From: Escherichia coli
GTDB lineage: Bacteria > Pseudomonadota > Gammaproteobacteria > Enterobacterales > Enterobacteriaceae
Assembly (NCBI RefSeq): GCF_003334815.1
Contig: NZ_QOWO01000043.1
Strand: one strand, 5' to 3'
DNA length: 31,047 bases
This document shows positions 425 through 7,520 of the stretch, piece after piece. Made by a program: the position numbers and the translations under genes. The notes under the pieces are model-generated. The model ran no database searches. It was not told the DNA's origin and saw nothing but the letters and a program-made list of their open reading frames with translations. Positions within the stretch are counted from its first letter, which is position 1; the number at the start of each line of letters is the position of its first letter.

Positions 425-440
425 GCGCAAACGTTTTCGT
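425..440 (+). promoter_or_regulatory. PurR operator (pur box) in purHD promoter
   Basis: GCGCAAACGTTTTCGT matches the 16-bp PurR box consensus (aCGCAAACGTTTTCnT); a TACAAT -10-like hexamer follows at 441-446. Confidence 0.7.
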
Positions 441-547: not shown

Positions 548-2137
548 ATGCAACAACGTCGTCCAGTCCGCCGCGCTCTGCTCAGTGTTTCTGACAAAGC
601 CGGTATCGTCGAATTCGCCCAGGCACTTTCCGCACGCGGTGTGGAGCTGCTGTCTACAGGGGGCACTGCCCGTCTGTTAGCAGAAAAAGGTCTGCCGGTA
701 ACCGAAGTTTCCGATTACACCGGTTTCCCGGAGATGATGGATGGACGCGTGAAGACCCTGCATCCGAAAGTACATGGTGGCATTCTGGGCCGTCGCGGCC
801 AGGACGATGCCATTATGGAAGAACATCAGATCCAGCCTATCGATATGGTGGTTGTTAACCTGTATCCGTTCGCCCAGACCGTGGCCCGTGAAGGTTGCTC
901 GCTGGAAGATGCGGTTGAGAACATCGATATCGGCGGCCCAACGATGGTGCGCTCCGCCGCCAAGAACCATAAAGATGTCGCAATCGTGGTGAAGAGCAGC
1001 GACTATGACGCCATTATTAAAGAGATGGATGACAACGAAGGATCGCTGACGCTTGCAACCCGTTTCGACCTCGCCATCAAAGCCTTCGAACACACTGCCG
1101 CCTACGACAGCATGATTGCCAACTACTTCGGCAGCATGGTTCCGGCTTACCACGGTGAAAGCAAAGAAGCCGCCGGTCGCTTCCCACGCACGCTGAACCT
1201 GAACTTCATTAAGAAGCTGGATATGCGTTACGGCGAGAACAGCCACCAGCAGGCTGCCTTCTATATAGAAGAGAATGTGAAAGAAGCCTCCGTTGCTACC
1301 GCAACCCAGGTTCAGGGTAAAGCCCTCTCTTATAACAACATTGCCGATACCGATGCGGCGCTGGAGTGCGTGAAAGAGTTCGCCGAGCCGGCATGTGTGA
1401 TTGTGAAGCACGCCAACCCTTGCGGCGTGGCTATCGGCAATTCCATTCTTGATGCTTACGATCGCGCGTACAAAACCGACCCAACCTCCGCATTCGGCGG
1501 CATCATTGCCTTTAACCGCGAGCTGGATGCGGAAACCGCACAGGCCATCATTTCTCGTCAGTTTGTCGAAGTGATTATTGCGCCGTCCGCCAGCGAAGAA
1601 GCCCTGAAAATCACCGCCGCCAAACAGAACGTACGCGTTCTGACCTGCGGTCAGTGGGGCGAGCGTGTTCCGGGCCTCGATTTCAAACGCGTGAACGGCG
1701 GTCTGCTGGTTCAGGATCGTGACCTGGGGATGGTCGGTGCGGAAGAACTGCGCGTGGTGACCAAACGTCAGCCGAGCGAACAGGAACTGCGTGATGCGCT
1801 GTTCTGCTGGAAGGTGGCGAAGTTTGTGAAATCCAACGCTATCGTCTATGCCAAAAACAATATGACTATCGGCATTGGCGCGGGCCAGATGAGCCGCGTG
1901 TACTCCGCAAAAATCGCCGGTATTAAAGCGGCCGATGAAGGCCTGGAAGTGAAAGGTTCCTCGATGGCTTCTGACGCGTTCTTCCCGTTCCGCGACGGTA
2001 TTGATGCCGCCGCCGCTGCGGGCGTGACCTGCGTAATCCAGCCTGGCGGTTCTATCCGTGATGACGAAGTGATTGCCGCCGCCGACGAGCACGGTATTGC
2101 GATGCTCTTCACCGACATGCGCCACTTCCGCCATTAA
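548..2137 (+). CDS. purH: Bifunctional AICAR transformylase / IMP cyclohydrolase
   Basis: 529-aa ORF; N-terminal MGS-like domain ([17 protein letters not shown]...STGGTA) and AICARFT domain recognised; SD-like GGGGA upstream; followed by purD. Confidence 0.97.
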
Positions 2138-2148
2138 TGGAGCAATAG

Positions 2149-3438
2149 ATGAAAGTATTAGTGATTGGTAACGGCGGGCGCGAGCACGCGCTGGCCTGGA
2201 AAGCGGCCCAGTCGCCGCTGGTTGAGACTGTTTTTGTTGCTCCGGGTAATGCAGGCACTGCACTGGAACCCGCGCTGCAAAACGTTGCTATTGGCGTGAC
2301 CGATATCCCGGCGCTGTTGGATTTCGCACAAAACGAAAAGATTGATCTGACCATCGTCGGCCCGGAAGCGCCGCTGGTGAAAGGCGTGGTCGATACCTTC
2401 CGCGCCGCCGGGCTGAAAATCTTCGGCCCAACCGCAGGTGCGGCCCAACTGGAAGGCTCAAAAGCGTTTACCAAAGATTTCCTGGCCCGCCATAAGATCC
2501 CTACGGCGGAATACCAGAACTTCACCGAGGTAGAACCTGCGCTGGCGTATCTGCGTGAGAAAGGCGCGCCAATCGTCATTAAAGCGGACGGTCTGGCTGC
2601 CGGGAAAGGCGTTATCGTGGCGATGACGCTGGAAGAAGCGGAAGCGGCTGTTCACGATATGCTGGCGGGCAACGCTTTTGGCGACGCGGGTCATCGCATC
2701 GTTATCGAAGAGTTCCTCGATGGCGAAGAAGCGAGCTTTATCGTGATGGTGGACGGCGAGCATGTGCTGCCGATGGCTACCAGCCAGGATCACAAACGCG
2801 TAGGCGATAAAGATACCGGACCAAACACCGGCGGGATGGGCGCTTACTCCCCCGCGCCGGTAGTAACCGATGACGTTCATCAGCGCACCATGGAACGTAT
2901 TATCTGGCCAACCGTGAAAGGCATGGCGGCGGAAGGCAACACCTACACCGGTTTTCTCTACGCGGGCCTGATGATCGACAAACAGGGCAATCCGAAGGTT
3001 ATTGAATTTAACTGCCGCTTTGGCGATCCGGAAACCCAGCCGATTATGCTGCGCATGAAGTCCGATCTGGTTGAGCTCTGCCTGGCGGCCTGTGAAAGCA
3101 AACTGGACGAGAAAACGTCCGAGTGGGATGAACGCGCTTCTCTCGGCGTGGTGATGGCTGCGGGTGGATATCCGGGTGATTACCGCACCGGTGACGTGAT
3201 CCACGGCCTGCCGCTGGAAGAAGTGGCAGGCGGCAAAGTGTTCCACGCGGGCACAAAACTGGCGGATGACGAGCAGGTAGTGACCAACGGCGGGCGCGTA
3301 CTGTGCGTCACCGCGCTGGGTCATACCGTGGCAGAAGCGCAGAAACGCGCCTATGCCTTAATGACCGATATCCACTGGGACGACTGCTTCTGCCGGAAAG
3401 ATATCGGCTGGCGCGCTATCGAACGCGAGCAGAACTAA
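2149..3438 (+). CDS. purD: Phosphoribosylamine-glycine ligase (GAR synthetase)
   Basis: 429-aa ORF starting MKVLVIGNGGREHALAWK; ATP-grasp family; GGAG SD upstream; 11-nt gap after purH indicates an operon. Confidence 0.97.
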   Translation: MKVLVIGNGGREHALAWKAAQSPLVETVFVAPGNAGTALEPALQNVAIGVTDIPALLDFAQNEKIDLTIVGPEAPLVKGVVDTFRAAGLKIFGPTAGAAQLEGSKAFTKDFLARHKIPTAEYQNFTEVEPALAYLREKGAPIVIKADGLAAGKGVIVAMTLEEAEAAVHDMLAGNAFGDAGHRIVIEEFLDGEEASFIVMVDGEHVLPMATSQDHKRVGDKDTGPNTGGMGAYSPAPVVTDDVHQRTMERIIWPTVKGMAAEGNTYTGFLYAGLMIDKQGNPKVIEFNCRFGDPETQPIMLRMKSDLVELCLAACESKLDEKTSEWDERASLGVVMAAGGYPGDYRTGDVIHGLPLEEVAGGKVFHAGTKLADDEQVVTNGGRVLCVTALGHTVAEAQKRAYALMTDIHWDDCFCRKDIGWRAIEREQN

Positions 3439-4760
3439 CGCGACAGTTTTGCCAATAGCGTTTTGCGCGTGATCCCTAACTGACGGGCGGCTTCGGTTTT
3501 GTTGCCGCCCGTTTTCTCCAGCGCCGCCAGAATCACCTCTTTTTCCACTTCCACCAACGGCTGAATATCCTGACTTTGTCCCAGCGGGATCGGCGTACTG
3601 GCAATCGCCAGCGGCAGCTCGCGTTCGGAAATATATTCCCCGGTCAGCAGCACCACTGCCCGTTCCACCGCGTTTTCCAGCTCACGAATATTTCCCGGCC
3701 AGTCGTAATGAATCAACAGATCCATCGCCTGGGGCGTAAAACCTTTTACCGCCTTGCGATTACGCTCGGCAAAGCGCTGCAGAAAATGGCCAGCCAGCAG
3801 AGGGATATCTTCCCGCCGTTGCCGCAGCGATGGTACTTCAATCGCCACCACATTCAGGCGATAGTAGAGATCCTGGCGAAAACGCCCGGCATTCACCTCT
3901 GCGGCAAGATCGCGATGGGTCGCCGCAATCAGCCGGACATCAACCGAGATAATCTGGTTGCTACCGACACGCTGAACTTCGCGCTCCTGAATCGCACGCA
4001 GCAGACGCACCTGCATCATCGGCGAGATATCGCCAATTTCATCGAGAAACAGCGTGCCGCCGTCCGCCTCAACAAAGCGCCCTTCCCGGCGTTTATCGGC
4101 TCCAGTAAACGCCCCTTTTTCATGACCGAACAATTCAGATTCCAGCAAGGATTCGTTGAGTGCCGCACAGTTGAGCGTTACCAGCGGTTTTTCGCTACGT
4201 GCGCTACTGGCGTGAATCGCCCTGGCGACCAGCTCTTTACCGGTGCCGGAATCGCCGTGGATCAGTACCGTGGCTTCCGATGGCGCGACGAGGGCGATTT
4301 CACTGAGCAGGTGTTGCATCGCCGGGCTTTTACCGACCATACCGAACTGGCTGGCAGTCACCGCAGGTGTTTCAGCATCAATACTGTGCGTATGCGCGAG
4401 CGCTTTTTCCAGCGTCGCCTGTAGGTTATCGAAATCCAGCGGCTTGATGAGATAATCCAGCGCCCCAGTTTTCAGTGCCTCTACCGCCGTCTCGACGCTG
4501 GAGTACGCAGTCATAATCAGCACCGGAATTGCCGGGTTTAACGCTTTGATCTCTTTCAGCGTGGCGATGCCGTCCATCTCCGCCATTCGCACATCGCAAA
4601 GCACAAGATCAAAAACCTGTTCCCGCACCTGCTCCAACGCCTGTCGCCCGCTGTTCGCCAGCGCGACGTTATAGCCCCAGCCGCGCAGTAAAGCCTGCAA
4701 AATAGTGCAGTGGCTAATGTCATCATCCACCACCAGAATATCGATATTATCGTGCGTCAT
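3435..4760 (-). CDS. zraR: sigma54-dependent response regulator (NtrC family), zinc/envelope-stress system
   Basis: 441-aa ORF with receiver domain, AAA+ sigma54-activator domain including the GAFTGA motif ([17 protein letters not shown]), and C-terminal HTH; 4-bp overlap with zraS. Confidence 0.95.
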
Positions 4761-6154
4761 CCTTGTGGGTCCTTACGCGTAATATTGACCGGAAGCCAGA
4801 GGGTGAACGTTGAGCCTTTTCCCTCCTGGCTTGCGACCTGAATTGTACCACCGTGTTGTTCAACAATATTATGCACGACCGCCAGCCCCAATCCGGTGCC
4901 TTCGGCTTTAGTGGTGAAGTACGGAGTGAAGATGGCATCAAGCTGATCTGCCGCAATTCCCTTACCGCTGTCGGTAACGCTGATTTTCACGCCCGCGCCG
5001 CTTTCGCTGGCCGTCACGCTAATCACGCCATGCTGACCAATCGCCTGAATAGCATTGAGATAGAGATTCAACAGGACCTGAGTCAGCCTGTCCGGGTCGG
5101 CCTGAATTTCCGGTAATGTGTCGTTGGCGGTAAAGCGTAACTGGATCTCCCGGCTGTTTGCATCCTGACTTACCAGCTGTAATGAGTGGTTAATCAGCGT
5201 GTTGAGATCCACCGCCTGCAAAGCCAGATGCGTTGGCTTAACCAGTTCCAGCAACTCGCTTACCACGCGGTTTAAACGGTCGGCCTCTTTCGCCATCACC
5301 TGCGCCAGTTGATGCGCTTCTCCCCCTGCAGGCGCGCGCTCGGCAAAGTATTTCGCCAGTCCTTTAATCGAGGAAAGTGGGTTACGGATTTCGTGGGCAA
5401 CGCCTGCCGCAAGATGCCCCAGCGCCACCAGCTTCTCTTTGCGCTTCATTTCATCTTGTAGAAGCTGGCGCGAGCGCAGATAGCGGCGATACCAGAAGAA
5501 TGACAATACGCTTGCCAGCAAGACCGTCGCCAGGGCGAAGAGGATAATCAGGGTATTGCGCTTTTCCCCACTCTGGGTTGCAACCAGATCACTGGCATCA
5601 ACGGCGATAAAAATAGCCTGTTGTGCATCTACTTGTGGCACAGCTTTGCCGTTACAGCGCGGCATATTGTGCATTCCATGCCGCCAGGGCGCTGACATTG
5701 GCTGGAACAAACGATAGACCTCAAGTGCAGGCGTAGTTTCCGTTTTCCCAAGCAGCCGCCAGCGGGAGTTTTCCTCTGGCTTTAATTTCTGCATTTCATC
5801 CGGCGAATAGAGCGCACGCCCGACCTTATCGGGGTCGCTATGAAGAATAATGATGCCCTGCGCATCGGTGACTGCGAACCACAACACTCCCGGCTGTCCC
5901 GCCATCTCTTCCAGAAGCGCCTGTTGCTGTACATGGTGCATTCGCATCCCCATCCCTACGCGGCTTCCCGACTCCAGAGCGCGGATAAGCACATTACCTT
6001 TTTCCAGTAATGCCTGGCGGTCTGCCTCGCTTGCCCGCCCATAATCACGAATCACAGTTACCGCAAACAATCCCACCAGCCCAACAATGACCACGGGGAG
6101 GATCGCGCTTAACCATTTAGCTAAGGAGTCTTTAGAACGTTGCATAAAACGCAT
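4757..6154 (-). CDS. zraS: Sensor histidine kinase of the ZraSR two-component system
   Basis: 465-aa ORF; N-terminal TM segment, periplasmic domain, second TM, H-box (HEIRNPL) and HATPase domain (GTGLGL). Confidence 0.95.
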   Translation of the reverse strand: MRFMQRSKDSLAKWLSAILPVVIVGLVGLFAVTVIRDYGRASEADRQALLEKGNVLIRALESGSRVGMGMRMHHVQQQALLEEMAGQPGVLWFAVTDAQGIIILHSDPDKVGRALYSPDEMQKLKPEENSRWRLLGKTETTPALEVYRLFQPMSAPWRHGMHNMPRCNGKAVPQVDAQQAIFIAVDASDLVATQSGEKRNTLIILFALATVLLASVLSFFWYRRYLRSRQLLQDEMKRKEKLVALGHLAAGVAHEIRNPLSSIKGLAKYFAERAPAGGEAHQLAQVMAKEADRLNRVVSELLELVKPTHLALQAVDLNTLINHSLQLVSQDANSREIQLRFTANDTLPEIQADPDRLTQVLLNLYLNAIQAIGQHGVISVTASESGAGVKISVTDSGKGIAADQLDAIFTPYFTTKAEGTGLGLAVVHNIVEQHGGTIQVASQEGKGSTFTLWLPVNITRKDPQG

Positions 6155-6184: not shown

Positions 6185-6201
6185 CAGCAGAAATCATGCC
6201 A
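6185..6201 (-). promoter_or_regulatory. sigma54 (-24/-12) promoter for zraSR
   Basis: Minus strand reads TGGCATgatttcTGCTg, with GG and GC at the canonical -24/-12 spacing. Confidence 0.65.
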
Positions 6202-6252
6202 TCTTTTATCAGCGCTTACCCTGCGCTGTAACACAAAGGCTTAAGTTTCAAT

Positions 6253-6298
6253 GAGTAAAAATGACTCGCTACCCGCAGCAGGCGAGTCATTTTTACTC
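6253..6298. promoter_or_regulatory. Upstream activating sequence: perfect 17-bp inverted repeat (GAGTAAAAATGACTCGC, 12-bp spacer), probable ZraR binding site
   Basis: 6253-6269 is the exact reverse complement of 6282-6298; located between the divergent sigma54 promoters of zraP and zraSR. Confidence 0.7.
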
Positions 6299-6340
6299 GT
6301 TTATCATGCCAGATTACCCGTCATATCAGCGTTTCATCGT

Positions 6341-6356
6341 TGGCACGGAAGATGCA
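6341..6356 (+). promoter_or_regulatory. sigma54 (-24/-12) promoter for zraP
   Basis: TGGCACggaagaTGCA matches the sigma54 consensus TGGCAC-N5-TTGCA; about 35 nt upstream of the zraP start. Confidence 0.75.
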
Positions 6357-6391
6357 ATACCCGAAGTAAGACAACCACTGGAGGATTAACC

Positions 6392-6817
6392 ATGAAACGG
6401 AACACGAAAATTGCCCTGGTAATGATGGCGCTTTCAGCAATGGCGATGGGATCGACATCTGCATTTGCTCACGGCGGACACGGTATGTGGCAGCAAAATG
6501 CCGCGCCTTTGACCAGCGAACAACAGACAGCGTGGCAGAAAATCCATAATGACTTTTACGCTCAAAGCAGCGCACTGCAACAGCAACTGGTGACGAAGCG
6601 TTATGAATACAATGCCCTGTTAGCCGCGAACCCACCGGATAGCAGCAAAATTAACGCGGTCGCCAAAGAGATGGAGAATTTGCGTCAGTCGTTAGATGAG
6701 TTACGGGTGAAACGAGATATCGCGATGGCTGAAGCGGGTATTCCGCGCGGAGCCGGAATGGGCATGGGCTACGGCGGCTGCGGTGGTGGCGGTCATATGG
6801 GTATGGGCCACTGGTAA
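6392..6817 (+). CDS. zraP: Periplasmic zinc-binding envelope-stress chaperone
   Basis: 141-aa product starting MKRNTKIALVMMALSAMAMGSTSAFA (signal peptide) with GGAGGA SD at 6380-6385; Gly/His/Met-rich C-terminus. The ORF-track start at 6251 is an in-frame over-extension through the promoter. Confidence 0.93.
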   Translation: MKRNTKIALVMMALSAMAMGSTSAFAHGGHGMWQQNAAPLTSEQQTAWQKIHNDFYAQSSALQQQLVTKRYEYNALLAANPPDSSKINAVAKEMENLRQSLDELRVKRDIAMAEAGIPRGAGMGMGYGGCGGGGHMGMGHW

Positions 6818-6818
6818 A

Positions 6819-7520
6819 TCAGAACGTTTTCTCGTTGGGTTGCCAGCGACAGAAATCAGAGTTTGCCACTAACAGTAATTGCGAACCTTCGGGCGCTTCC
6901 AGCCATGCCACGCTGACATCAACAGAAGAGCGGCTCTGGCGGCGCTCGATATGCGCTATCGCCTGCGAATCTAAATCAGGTTTAATGGTTTGCCCTTCGC
7001 AGGTGGTCACGGTCTGTTCCATCGCATGCCAGCGCCCCTGGCGCAGCACGACTCTCCCCTGACGTAAGGCATCGCTAATCTGGCGGATCTGATCAGCACG
7101 ATAACGGTATAAATCGATTTGGTCGTTAGAAAGCTGCTGCTTTTCCCCATCGGATTCACGTTGCATAAAGCTCAGATCACCGCGATCGTCAAAACGCGCG
7201 CGAATATTCACCGGCGGTTTGCTGTAAACATTGATATTGATGAGCGTGAGGTTATCGCCCTGCCAGCGATACTCTCGCGTCGTGGTATCGCCACTGCGCC
7301 ACGGGCTAAACACGGCAAGCAGATGCACATTATCGCCGCTGTCTTTTCGCCAGATGCGTACCGCGCCCTGGTCTTCAGCAAATCCACTGGCGGTAAAGGG
7401 AGGAAGTGAAGAGTTATGACTACAGGCAGTGAGAAGCAGAGCGCCAGCCAGCATCAATGATCGACGCCAGAAAGACAAAAGGGGTGAAACCACCCCTTCG
7501 TTAAAACTGTTCACTGCCAC
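6819..7520 (-). CDS. yjaH: Conserved protein of unknown function (DUF1481 family), probable lipoprotein
   Basis: 233-aa ORF with signal peptide and lipobox-like LLTAC; conserved position between zraP and hupA. The exact start codon is uncertain. Confidence 0.85.
   Translation of the reverse strand: MAVNSFNEGVVSPLLSFWRRSLMLAGALLLTACSHNSSLPPFTASGFAEDQGAVRIWRKDSGDNVHLLAVFSPWRSGDTTTREYRWQGDNLTLININVYSKPPVNIRARFDDRGDLSFMQRESDGEKQQLSNDQIDLYRYRADQIRQISDALRQGRVVLRQGRWHAMEQTVTTCEGQTIKPDLDSQAIAHIERRQSRSSVDVSVAWLEAPEGSQLLLVANSDFCRWQPNEKTF

What the first reader, a model, noticed from the sequence alone, without database searches (positions are those of the whole stretch)
3435..3438. Convergent purD and zraR share overlapping stop codons (CTAA), leaving no room for terminators
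The purD stop TAA (3436-3438, +) and the zraR stop TAG (rc of 3435-3437, -) overlap, so the purHD and zraSR transcripts must terminate inside each other's coding sequence. This creates potential for transcriptional interference or antisense RNA between purine biosynthesis and the Zn/envelope-stress system.
Basis: seen in the sequence. Interest (0 to 1): 0.2.

Follow-up and report, generated by a model that had tools for sequence, protein, structure and literature searches.

The report
purD–zraR tail-to-tail stop-codon overlap
Two convergent E. coli genes, purD and zraR, do share the four bases CTAA as overlapping stop codons, but this is an ordinary, already catalogued arrangement in which the purD terminator hairpin appears to be written into the last codons of zraR and zraR-strand transcription is stopped by Rho inside purD.

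Summary
CTAA at 3435-3438 holds the purD stop TAA (3436-3438, + strand) and the zraR stop TAG (reverse complement of 3435-3437). RefSeq annotates the same overlap in K-12 and other E. coli.

The arrangement is ordinary and already known:
- [CT]TA[AG] is the standard 4-nt convergent overlap, and a 2007 study counted 58 convergent overlaps in E. coli.
- zraR-purD is listed in the published E. coli "excludome".

"No room for terminators" is wrong in substance.
- A GC-rich hairpin (3482-3513, about -18 to -22 kcal/mol) followed by a U-tract lies 44 nt past the purD stop, inside zraR codons 414-427.
- It is present in all 15 Escherichia, Salmonella, Citrobacter and Klebsiella loci examined.
- Its two arms are the two longest invariant nucleotide runs in the whole zraR gene.
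- Its Gly and Ala codons (GGC GGC / GCC GCC) are frozen (Fisher p = 0.0015).
- It is absent from the E. coli paralogues and from 79 distant homologues.
- Published bicyclomycin data place a Rho-dependent termination region on the zraR strand about 270 nt into antisense purD.

Transcript overlap is therefore real and bounded. Regulatory cross-talk remains untested, and I found no mapped 3' end at the hairpin. Interest is low.

The parts
425..440 (+). PurR-box-like operator upstream of purH (GCGCAAACGTTTTCGT)
   Evidence: 2 mismatches to ACGCAAACGTTTGCGT and the only match in the window. Its role as the purHD operator is from established knowledge, not tested here.
548..2137 (+). purH CDS (first gene of the purHD operon)
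   Evidence: (TIGR00355, 908 bits).
2149..3438 (+). purD CDS, stop TAA at 3436-3438
   Evidence: (TIGR00877, 631 bits).
3435..3438 (.). CTAA tetramer shared by the purD stop (TAA, +) and the zraR stop (TAG, -)
   Evidence: Conserved in 13 of 15 enterobacterial loci.
3482..3513 (+). Hairpin in the purD-sense RNA. The core stem is 3484-3491 paired with 3504-3511 (CGGGCGGC/GCCGCCCG), with a 12-nt loop at 3492-3503. It is a candidate intrinsic terminator of purHD, encoded by zraR codons 416-427 ([11 protein letters not shown] region of the HTH).
   Evidence: -21.9 kcal/mol, z -2.8, 0 of 200 shuffles; present in all 15 loci; 98.7% of cells paired; the arms are the two longest invariant runs in zraR, and Fisher p = 0.0015 for frozen Gly/Ala codons.
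3512..3519 (+). U-tract after the hairpin: TTTTCTCC in Escherichia, TTTTTTCC or TTTTTTCG in Salmonella, Citrobacter and Klebsiella. The predicted purHD 3' end is about 3517-3522 (K-12 minus strand about 4204558-4204563).
   Evidence: The 3' end position is inferred, not mapped.
3100..3330 (-). C>G (rut-like) zone in the zraR-sense RNA, 100-340 nt past the zraR stop and antisense to purD. The published Rho-score peak at K-12 4204911 (+) corresponds to window 3169.
   Evidence: C/G 1.3-1.8. (Adams et al. 2021, supplementary file 2: read-through ratio 17/74 without bicyclomycin and 169/172 with it, Rho score 4.28, p 5.7e-8). Coordinate mapping.
3435..4760 (-). zraR CDS (sigma-54 response regulator), stop TAG = reverse complement of 3435-3437
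   Evidence: (NF007689, 995 bits, residues 1-441 of 441).
4757..6154 (-). zraS CDS. Its TGA overlaps the zraR ATG in ATGA (4757-4760).
   Evidence: (NF007688, 842 bits).
6186..6201 (-). Sigma-54-type -24/-12 element of zraSR (TGGCATGATTTCTGCT)
   Evidence: Read from the sequence. Its identity as zraSp is from established knowledge, not tested here.

Best explanation
This is an ordinary, ancestral 4-nt tail-to-tail overlap between the last gene of the purHD operon and the last gene of the zraSR operon in E. coli. Termination of both operons has been moved into the partner's coding sequence.

(1) purHD. RNA polymerase passes the purD stop and runs 44 nt antisense into zraR. There it transcribes an 8-10 bp GC-rich hairpin (3482-3513) followed by a U-tract, and most likely terminates intrinsically near 3517-3522. 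This gives a 3' UTR of about 80 nt antisense to zraR codons 414-441. The same 36 nt encode part of the ZraR helix-turn-helix ([11 protein letters not shown]). The hairpin exists because Gly-Gly is written GGC GGC and Ala-Ala is written GCC GCC. The U-tract is the antisense of Glu-Lys-Thr codons.

(2) zraSR. There is no U-tract after the same hairpin on the minus strand, so zraR is not self-terminated. Past its stop codon the RNA is untranslated and becomes C-rich and G-poor. Rho terminates it roughly 270 nt into antisense purD.

(3) The two transcripts are therefore complementary over a few hundred nucleotides, which is why the pair appears in RNA-seq 'excludon' catalogues. No regulatory consequence has been shown.

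Shown: the overlap, its conservation, the hairpin and its unusual nucleotide conservation, and the published bicyclomycin-sensitive region. Inferred: that the hairpin actually terminates purHD, and where.
For: Overlap and gene identities.

Conservation: the overlap is present in Escherichia, E. albertii, Salmonella, Citrobacter and Klebsiella.

Hairpin energy: -21.9 kcal/mol, z -2.8, and none of 200 shuffles folds as well.

Hairpin conservation:
- It is present with a U-tract in all 15 zraR-adjacent purD loci. The T run is longer (6 T) outside Escherichia.
- In 10 distinct full-length zraR sequences, the two longest invariant nucleotide runs of the whole gene are the hairpin arms with the A/U-tract (20 nt and 15 nt). 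They are separated by one freely varying loop position, and the next longest run is 11 nt.
- The four stem Gly/Ala codons are invariant, against 9 of 56 other conserved Gly/Ala codons (Fisher p = 0.0015).
- The three one-sided stem changes all give G.U pairs in the purD-sense RNA.

Not a by-product of the protein motif:
- E. coli glnG and glrR encode the equivalent Ala-Ala as GCG GCG and show no hairpin. atoC has no Ala-Ala there, and its antisense gives only a different, looser terminator-like fold.
- None of 79 distant ZraR homologues has this hairpin, although some encode GGNK.E.AR-like peptides.

Context: the nearest purD locus without zraR (Aeromonas) has a canonical intergenic terminator 25-42 nt after the stop, so purD is an operon end that needs one.

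Rho on the zraR strand: Adams et al. 2021 supplementary file 2 and a C>G zone at the same place.

Precedent for the class: PMC2174442 and PMC12288877.
Against: - No experimentally mapped 3' end at the hairpin was found. The curated Term-seq lists of Adams et al. (LB and M63) contain no purD or zraR 3' end and no coordinate in 42043xx-42049xx other than the Rho region.
- The loop is 12 nt, longer than typical terminator loops, so the consensus scan with its 3-8 nt loop limit missed the hairpin.
- The E. coli U-tract has only four consecutive U.
- There is no compensatory covariation. Support comes from conservation only.
- The comparative sample covers four genera, and all 13 distinct sequences are related.
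- The Rho evidence has coarse resolution (800-nt windows) and low read counts, and was obtained without Zn induction.
Confidence: 0.7

Rival explanations
1. The hairpin is conserved for reasons on the zraR side (zraR mRNA structure or stability, local codon preference, or low local mutation) and does not terminate purHD. Instead purHD is ended by Rho acting on the untranslated antisense RNA, or by collision with converging polymerases.
For: No mapped 3' end at the hairpin. The loop is atypically long and the E. coli U-tract is short. The purD-sense RNA past the stop is also C>G (1.3-2.2 from about 3465 to 3700), so Rho could act there. No covariation.
Against: The conserved block includes the A-run that forms the U-tract only on the purD-sense strand, and this lengthens to six U in three other genera. 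The observed stem substitutions keep pairing only in the purD-sense RNA; they would give C.A mismatches in zraR mRNA. Paralogues with the same codon usage lack the hairpin. Adams et al. list no Rho region antisense to zraR.
Confidence: 0.2
2. The overlap is a functional excludon: convergent transcription or antisense pairing makes purHD and zraSR expression mutually antagonistic, coupling purine status to the Zn/envelope-stress response.
For: Overlapping transcripts were detected in at least 50% of 58 RNA-seq data sets. The arrangement is conserved across four genera. Complementary 3' regions of a few hundred nucleotides are predicted.
Against: No expression data link the two operons. Only three papers in the library mention both genes, and none reports cross-regulation. 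Conservation of adjacency is equally expected from simple synteny. The embedded terminator and Rho both act to limit the overlap, which looks like insulation rather than coupling. zraSR is weakly expressed without Zn (74 reads upstream).
Confidence: 0.1
3. The overlap is an annotation or ORF-calling artefact, meaning one of the two genes really ends earlier.
For: None beyond the general fact that some overlaps are mis-annotations (PMC2478687 title and abstract).
Against: A stop codon is not a matter of choice. Both reading frames run uninterrupted to these stops. Both proteins align with their family models essentially to the end: ZraR to its last residue (1-441 of 441), PurD to residue 425 of 429. 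The C-terminal peptides are conserved across genera.
Confidence: 0.01

Closest known systems
4-nt convergent (tail-to-tail) stop-stop overlaps, tetramers CTAA/TTAA/CTAG/TTAG (Lillo & Krakauer 2007, PMC2174442)
   Same: Exactly this geometry: CTAA, with TAA on one strand and TAG on the other. It is one of the 58 convergent overlaps counted in E. coli. The TAG enrichment among such genes fits the zraR stop.
   Different: Nothing structural. Here the overlap is additionally shown to be conserved across Escherichia, Salmonella, Citrobacter and Klebsiella, with an 11-nt variant in one Klebsiella lineage.
Rho-independent terminators embedded in the coding sequence of a convergent partner (23 of 116 E. 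coli genes in convergent overlaps; PMC2174442)
   Same: GC-rich hairpin plus U-tract shortly after the stop codon, lying wholly within the partner's ORF. It is unidirectional.
   Different: The loop is long (12 nt) and the E. coli U-tract is short. The function is not mapped. I could not check whether this particular terminator is among the 23 predicted ones.
Convergent excludons (ExcludonFinder, PMC12288877)
   Same: zraR-purD is listed by name in the core E. coli excludome, defined by overlapping RNA-seq coverage.
   Different: The defining functional property of the classical excludon (mutually exclusive expression, RNase III processing) has not been shown for this pair.
Rho-dependent termination of untranslated antisense read-through (Adams et al. 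2021, PMC7815308, supplementary file 2)
   Same: Bicyclomycin-sensitive drop in coverage on the zraR strand antisense to purD, within a C>G zone, beginning after translation stops.
   Different: Only a region is known (800-nt windows), not a mapped 3' end. It was measured in LB without Zn induction.
Bidirectional intrinsic terminators between convergent genes (SEnd-seq literature, recalled from my own knowledge and seen only as titles)
   Same: One hairpin lies between or within a convergent gene pair.
   Different: Here the hairpin has a U-tract on one side only. On the zraR strand it is followed by CAGUUAGGG, so it cannot be bidirectional, and it could not be without truncating zraR.

Membership tests
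4-nt convergent stop-codon overlap | Two real protein-coding genes on opposite strands, 3' ends facing | tested here: met
   PurD TIGR00877 at 631 bits and ZraR NF007689 at 995 bits, both near full-length. RefSeq annotation.
4-nt convergent stop-codon overlap | Tetramer [CT]TA[AG] containing both in-frame stops | tested here: met
   CTAA at 3435-3438.
Intrinsic (Rho-independent) terminator | Stable GC-rich stem immediately followed by a U-rich tract on the transcribed strand | tested here: met
   8-10 bp stem, -15 to -21.9 kcal/mol, with tail UUUUCUCC (Escherichia) or UUUUUUCC/UUUUUUCG (other genera).
Intrinsic (Rho-independent) terminator | Short loop (typically 3-8 nt) | tested here: not met
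   The loop is 12 nt. Two extra inner pairs are possible but not conserved. The consensus scan with its 3-8 nt loop limit did not report the hairpin.
Intrinsic (Rho-independent) terminator | Located shortly downstream of the last stop codon of the operon | tested here: met
   The stem starts 44 nt after the purD TAA.
Intrinsic (Rho-independent) terminator | Experimentally mapped, Rho-independent RNA 3' end at the U-tract | tested here: inconclusive
   No such 3' end is in the curated Term-seq tables of Adams et al..
Rho-dependent terminator (zraR strand) | Read-through increased by bicyclomycin | tested here: met
   From the literature, not from my own experiment. Adams et al. supplementary file 2: K-12 4204911 (+), antisense to purD, downstream/upstream reads 17/74 without bicyclomycin and 169/172 with it, p 5.7e-8.
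Rho-dependent terminator (zraR strand) | Untranslated, C-rich and G-poor RNA upstream of the termination zone | tested here: met
   C/G 1.3-1.8 from 100 to 340 nt past the zraR stop.
Excludon | Overlapping transcripts from neighbouring opposite-strand genes | tested here: met
   From the literature: listed in Table 1 of PMC12288877. It also follows from the CDS overlap itself.
Excludon | Reciprocal (mutually exclusive) expression or RNase III processing of the overlap | not testable with these tools
   Needs expression data under Zn and purine shifts and in an rnc mutant.

The most novel reading that the evidence does not exclude
The 36-nt block at 3482-3519 is a selected dual-coding element. 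It simultaneously encodes the start of the ZraR DNA-binding helix-turn-helix and the purHD terminator. Its partial efficiency (only four U in Escherichia) would let purine-starvation-induced purHD transcription run antisense through zraR, so that purine status tunes the Zn/envelope-stress regulator. The evidence establishes unusual nucleotide conservation of the block. It does not exclude such read-through coupling, and it does not support it either.
Probability: 0.08. Interest if true: 0.4.

Novelty: already known. Interest (0 to 1): 0.12.

Why it matters
It matters little as a discovery. The overlap is in every E. coli annotation, belongs to the commonest class of convergent overlap, and the pair is already listed among overlapping-transcript pairs.

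It has modest value as a clean worked example of how two operons with zero intergenic DNA still terminate:
- One uses an intrinsic terminator written into synonymous positions of the neighbour's helix-turn-helix codons. This is the most conserved stretch of DNA in zraR.
- The other uses Rho on untranslated antisense RNA.

There are also practical consequences:
- Deleting or recoding the 3' end of zraR could remove the purHD terminator.
- Deleting the 3' end of purD could alter zraSR 3' processing.
- A single A-to-G change at 3437 keeps the purD stop (TGA) but extends ZraR by 28 residues. This variant is seen in rare natural isolates.

Tried and rejected
It returned one enterobacterial locus (Citrobacter) and 79 distant homologues, which I reused as a negative control.
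- The search for homologous proteins with ZraR listed only Escherichia clusters. This was useless for cross-genus comparison, but it revealed length variants.
- A metagenome scan with a degenerate purD C-terminal pattern gave the useful comparative set.
- The built-in terminator scan found nothing at the junction because its loop limit is 8 nt. Direct folding found the hairpin.
- I looked for an intrinsic terminator for zraSR in the first 95-145 nt of antisense purD. The folds are no better than shuffles (z about -0.7). A weak 5-bp site at 3120-3105 was not pursued.
- Covariation test on the hairpin: no compensatory pairs, so I make no covariation claim.
- A first synonymous-site test on only the last 44 codons was marginal (p about 0.02). 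The gene-wide test was clearer.
- Rfam: no family at the junction, even at E-value up to 1.
- Searches for mapped 3' ends in other E. coli data sets failed. SMRT-Cappable-seq supplements had no purD or zraR entries. Supplements of Dar & Sorek, Gruenberger et al., Conway et al. and ExcludonFinder are not held. The Ju et al. and Peters et al. papers are not held. PMC9262186 had nothing.
- The annotation-artefact explanation was rejected.

Full report
**What is there.** The window is E. coli chromosome. The segment 2900-4000 matches 5421 of 5426 complete E. coli genomes at 90-100% identity. At 3435-3438 the + strand reads CTAA.

The six-frame ORF list gives a 429-aa ORF at 2149-3438 (+) and a 441-aa ORF at 3435-4760 (-). 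NCBIfam identifies them as PurD (TIGR00877, 631 bits, residues 1-425) and ZraR (NF007689, 995 bits, residues 1-441 of 441). Their neighbours are PurH (548-2137, +), ZraS (4757-6154, -) and ZraP.

So the purD TAA (3436-3438) and the zraR TAG (reverse complement of 3435-3437) do overlap. RefSeq annotates the same 4-nt overlap in strain 300709 and in K-12 MG1655, where zraR is 4203320..4204645 and purD is 4204642..4205931.

**Is it unusual?** No. Lillo & Krakauer 2007 (PMC2174442) report several relevant points:
- The modal overlap length in prokaryotes is 4 bp.
- E. coli has 58 convergent overlaps.
- 23 of the 116 genes involved have a predicted Rho-independent terminator, which must then lie inside the partner's coding sequence.

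A second 4-nt convergent overlap (mltF 2695801..2697357 and tadA 2697354..2697857) appeared by accident in a K-12 stretch I fetched for another reason. ExcludonFinder (PMC12288877) lists zraR-purD by name among 165 convergent pairs with overlapping transcripts in at least 50% of 58 MG1655 RNA-seq data sets. The finding is therefore already known, both as an annotation and as a catalogued transcript overlap.

**Conservation.** A metagenome scan with a degenerate pattern for the PurD C-terminal peptide GWRAIERE returned about 95 purD loci.

All 15 loci with enterobacterial PurD carry a convergent zraR. This count includes K-12, strain 300709 and the Citrobacter werkmanii locus. Thirteen have the CTAA 4-nt overlap and two have an 11-nt overlap, in which purD runs 7 nt further to a second TAA.

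Exact-sequence look-up assigns the loci to E. coli, E. albertii, Salmonella enterica, Klebsiella michiganensis and other Klebsiella. The closest locus lacking zraR is Aeromonas taiwanensis (PurD 81% identical). It has a canonical intergenic terminator (AAGGGCCCCCGGGCCCTT followed by TTTTGTTG) 25-42 nt after the purD stop. purD is thus a true operon end that normally carries an intrinsic terminator.

**A terminator is there after all.** Folding the purD-sense RNA downstream of the stop gives a strong hairpin at 3482-3513:
- The core stem is CGGGCGGC (3484-3491) paired with GCCGCCCG (3504-3511).
- The energy is -21.9 kcal/mol, z = -2.8, and none of 200 shuffles folds as well.
- It is followed by UUUUCUCC.

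The consensus scan had missed it because its loop limit is 8 nt and this loop is 12 nt.

The hairpin lies in zraR codons 416-427, with the tail reaching codon 414. This is the [11 protein letters not shown] part of the C-terminal Fis-type helix-turn-helix. The stem arises because Gly-Gly is written GGC GGC and Ala-Ala is written GCC GCC. The U-tract is the antisense of Glu-Lys-Thr codons.

On the zraR strand the same hairpin is followed by CAGUUAGGG, so it would not terminate zraR itself.

**Is the hairpin selected, or a by-product of the protein motif?** Several tests point to selection:
- *Presence.* It is in all 15 loci at -15 to -21 kcal/mol. Outside Escherichia the tail is UUUUUUCC or UUUUUUCG.
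- *Local synonymous variation.* The last 44 ZraR residues are almost all identical across 13 distinct sequences, and 21 of the 32 degenerate codons outside the stem vary synonymously. The stem codons GGC GGC and GCC GCC never vary, while the loop Thr codon takes three forms (ACT, ACC, ACG).
- *Gene-wide synonymous variation.* In 10 distinct full-length sequences, only 9 of 56 other conserved Gly/Ala codons are invariant, against 4 of 4 in the stem (Fisher one-sided p = 0.0015).
- *Invariant runs.* The two longest invariant nucleotide runs in the whole 1.3-kb gene are the hairpin arms: AAAACGGGCGGCAACAAAAC (20 nt) and GAAGCCGCCCGTCAG (15 nt). They are separated by the single variable loop position, and the next longest run is 11 nt.
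- *E. coli paralogues.* glnG (QGHKQEAAR: GGG ... GCG GCG) and glrR (KGNVTHAAR: GGC ... GCG GCG) have no such antisense hairpin. atoC has only a loose, different one.
- *Distant homologues.* None of 79 distant ZraR homologues has it, although several encode very similar peptides.
- *Stem substitutions.* The three one-sided substitutions seen in the stem (A3483G in Salmonella and in one E. coli; C3510T in that E. coli) all give G.U pairs in the purD-sense RNA. They would give C.A mismatches in zraR mRNA. This is only a weak hint, because any transition has a one-in-two chance of behaving this way.

There is no compensatory covariation, so the case rests on conservation.

**The other strand.** The first 95-145 nt of zraR-sense RNA past its stop fold no better than shuffles. 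That RNA becomes C-rich and G-poor (C/G 1.3-1.8) from about 100 to 340 nt downstream, at window 3330-3100.

Adams et al. 2021 (PMC7815308, supplementary file 2) list a Rho termination region at K-12 4204911 (+), classified as antisense to purD:

| Condition | Upstream reads | Downstream reads |
|---|---|---|
| Without bicyclomycin | 74 | 17 |
| With bicyclomycin | 172 | 169 |

The Rho score is 4.28 and p = 5.7e-8. With the mapping, this position is window 3169, 266 nt past the zraR stop and inside the C>G zone.

**What is not shown.** I found no mapped 3' end at the hairpin. The curated Term-seq tables of Adams et al. contain no purD or zraR 3' end and no coordinate in 42043xx-42049xx apart from the Rho entry. 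The long loop and the four-U tail in Escherichia argue for a terminator of moderate strength at best.

Nothing links the expression of the two operons. Only three papers in the library mention both genes, and none reports cross-regulation. No Rfam family covers the junction.

**Mechanism proposed.** purHD has a PurR-box-like site at 425-440. Its transcription most likely terminates intrinsically near 3517-3522, leaving an antisense intrusion of about 80 nt into the last 28 codons of zraR.

zraSR has a sigma-54-type element, TGGCATGATTTCTGCT, at 6201-6186. It reads through its stop, and Rho terminates it about 270 nt into antisense purD.

The transcripts are thus complementary over roughly 350 nt. 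Both termination devices bound that overlap, which looks like insulation rather than coupling. I put about 0.7 on this overall picture:
- The overlap itself is near certainty.
- Rho on the zraR strand is about 0.8.
- The hairpin being the functional purHD terminator is about 0.65.

I put about 0.1 on a real regulatory excludon.

**Verdict.** The novelty class is "already known" and the interest is low (0.12). The only mildly new element is the demonstration that the most conserved DNA in zraR is a purHD terminator-like hairpin written into its helix-turn-helix codons.

Noticed in passing
window 3437 (A to G); proteins P0002, P0005, P0006, P0029: Rare E. coli assemblies encode a 469-aa ZraR ending ...KLSRQFCSRSIARQPISFRQKQSSQWISVIKA. 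This is the product expected if TAG becomes CAG, and on the purD strand that change turns TAA into TGA. One substitution in the shared tetramer therefore keeps the purD stop but extends ZraR by 28 residues into antisense purD.
   Followed up: partly
window 4614-4634 (-), ZraR residues 43-49 (EQVREQV): There is in-frame copy-number polymorphism of a 12-nt EQVR repeat in the ZraR receiver domain among E. coli: 437-, 441- and 445-aa forms. Other in-frame internal duplications give 448- and 459-aa forms.
   Followed up: partly
window 6815-6821; K-12 4201261-4201263: zraP (+) and yjaH (-) are convergent with a single base between their stops (TAA A TCA). Adams et al. list a strong Rho region antisense to zraP (K-12 4201402 +, Rho score 17.2), and yjaH-zraP is also in the excludome list.
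   Followed up: partly
window 4757-4760 (-): The zraS stop and zraR start overlap in ATGA, the classic 4-nt same-strand overlap associated with translational coupling.
   Followed up: yes
window 6251-6817 (+): The mechanical ORF list gives a 188-aa ORF for zraP. The NCBIfam match covers only residues 48-188, and RefSeq annotates 141 aa starting at the ATG at 6392, preceded by GGAGG. The long ORF is an upstream in-frame extension, not the gene.
   Followed up: yes
window about 6250-6300 and 6341-6356: The zraP-zraS intergenic region holds a long inverted repeat (GAGTAAAAATGACTCGC ... GCGAGTCATTTTTACTC). It also holds sigma-54-type elements on both strands: TGGCACGGAAGATGCA for zraP and TGGCATGATTTCTGCT for zraS. 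This is consistent with the known ZraR-activated divergent promoters.
   Followed up: partly
L128 3879-4003 and L188 1887-2011 (Klebsiella lineage): The purD-zraR overlap is 11 nt instead of 4. The zraR stop (CTA) stays in place, while purD reads 7 nt further to a second TAA (GCTAACGGCTAAG), giving a 431-aa PurD.
   Followed up: partly
hit H1, NZ_AP025180.1 (E. coli JP538): The 2900-4000 segment matches in two pieces with an IS1A transposase between them, and zraR is annotated as two fragments. This is an IS1 insertion that disrupts zraR in this strain.
   Followed up: no
L205 22355-22358 (K-12 2697354-2697357): mltF (+) and tadA (-) show the same kind of 4-nt convergent CDS overlap and are also in the excludome list.
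   Followed up: no
window 17593-17753 (+), 11800-11900 (+), 27089-27150 (-): Rfam gathering-threshold hits elsewhere in the window: sroH sRNA (201 bits), a TPP riboswitch (75 bits) and P26 (75 bits).
   Followed up: no
L156 1356-1480 and downstream: This metagenomic locus has a junction identical to E. coli and PurD 91.6% identical, but tblastn gives only about 72% identity for ZraR and no intact full-length zraR ORF was recovered. It may be a frameshifted or chimeric assembly.
   Followed up: no
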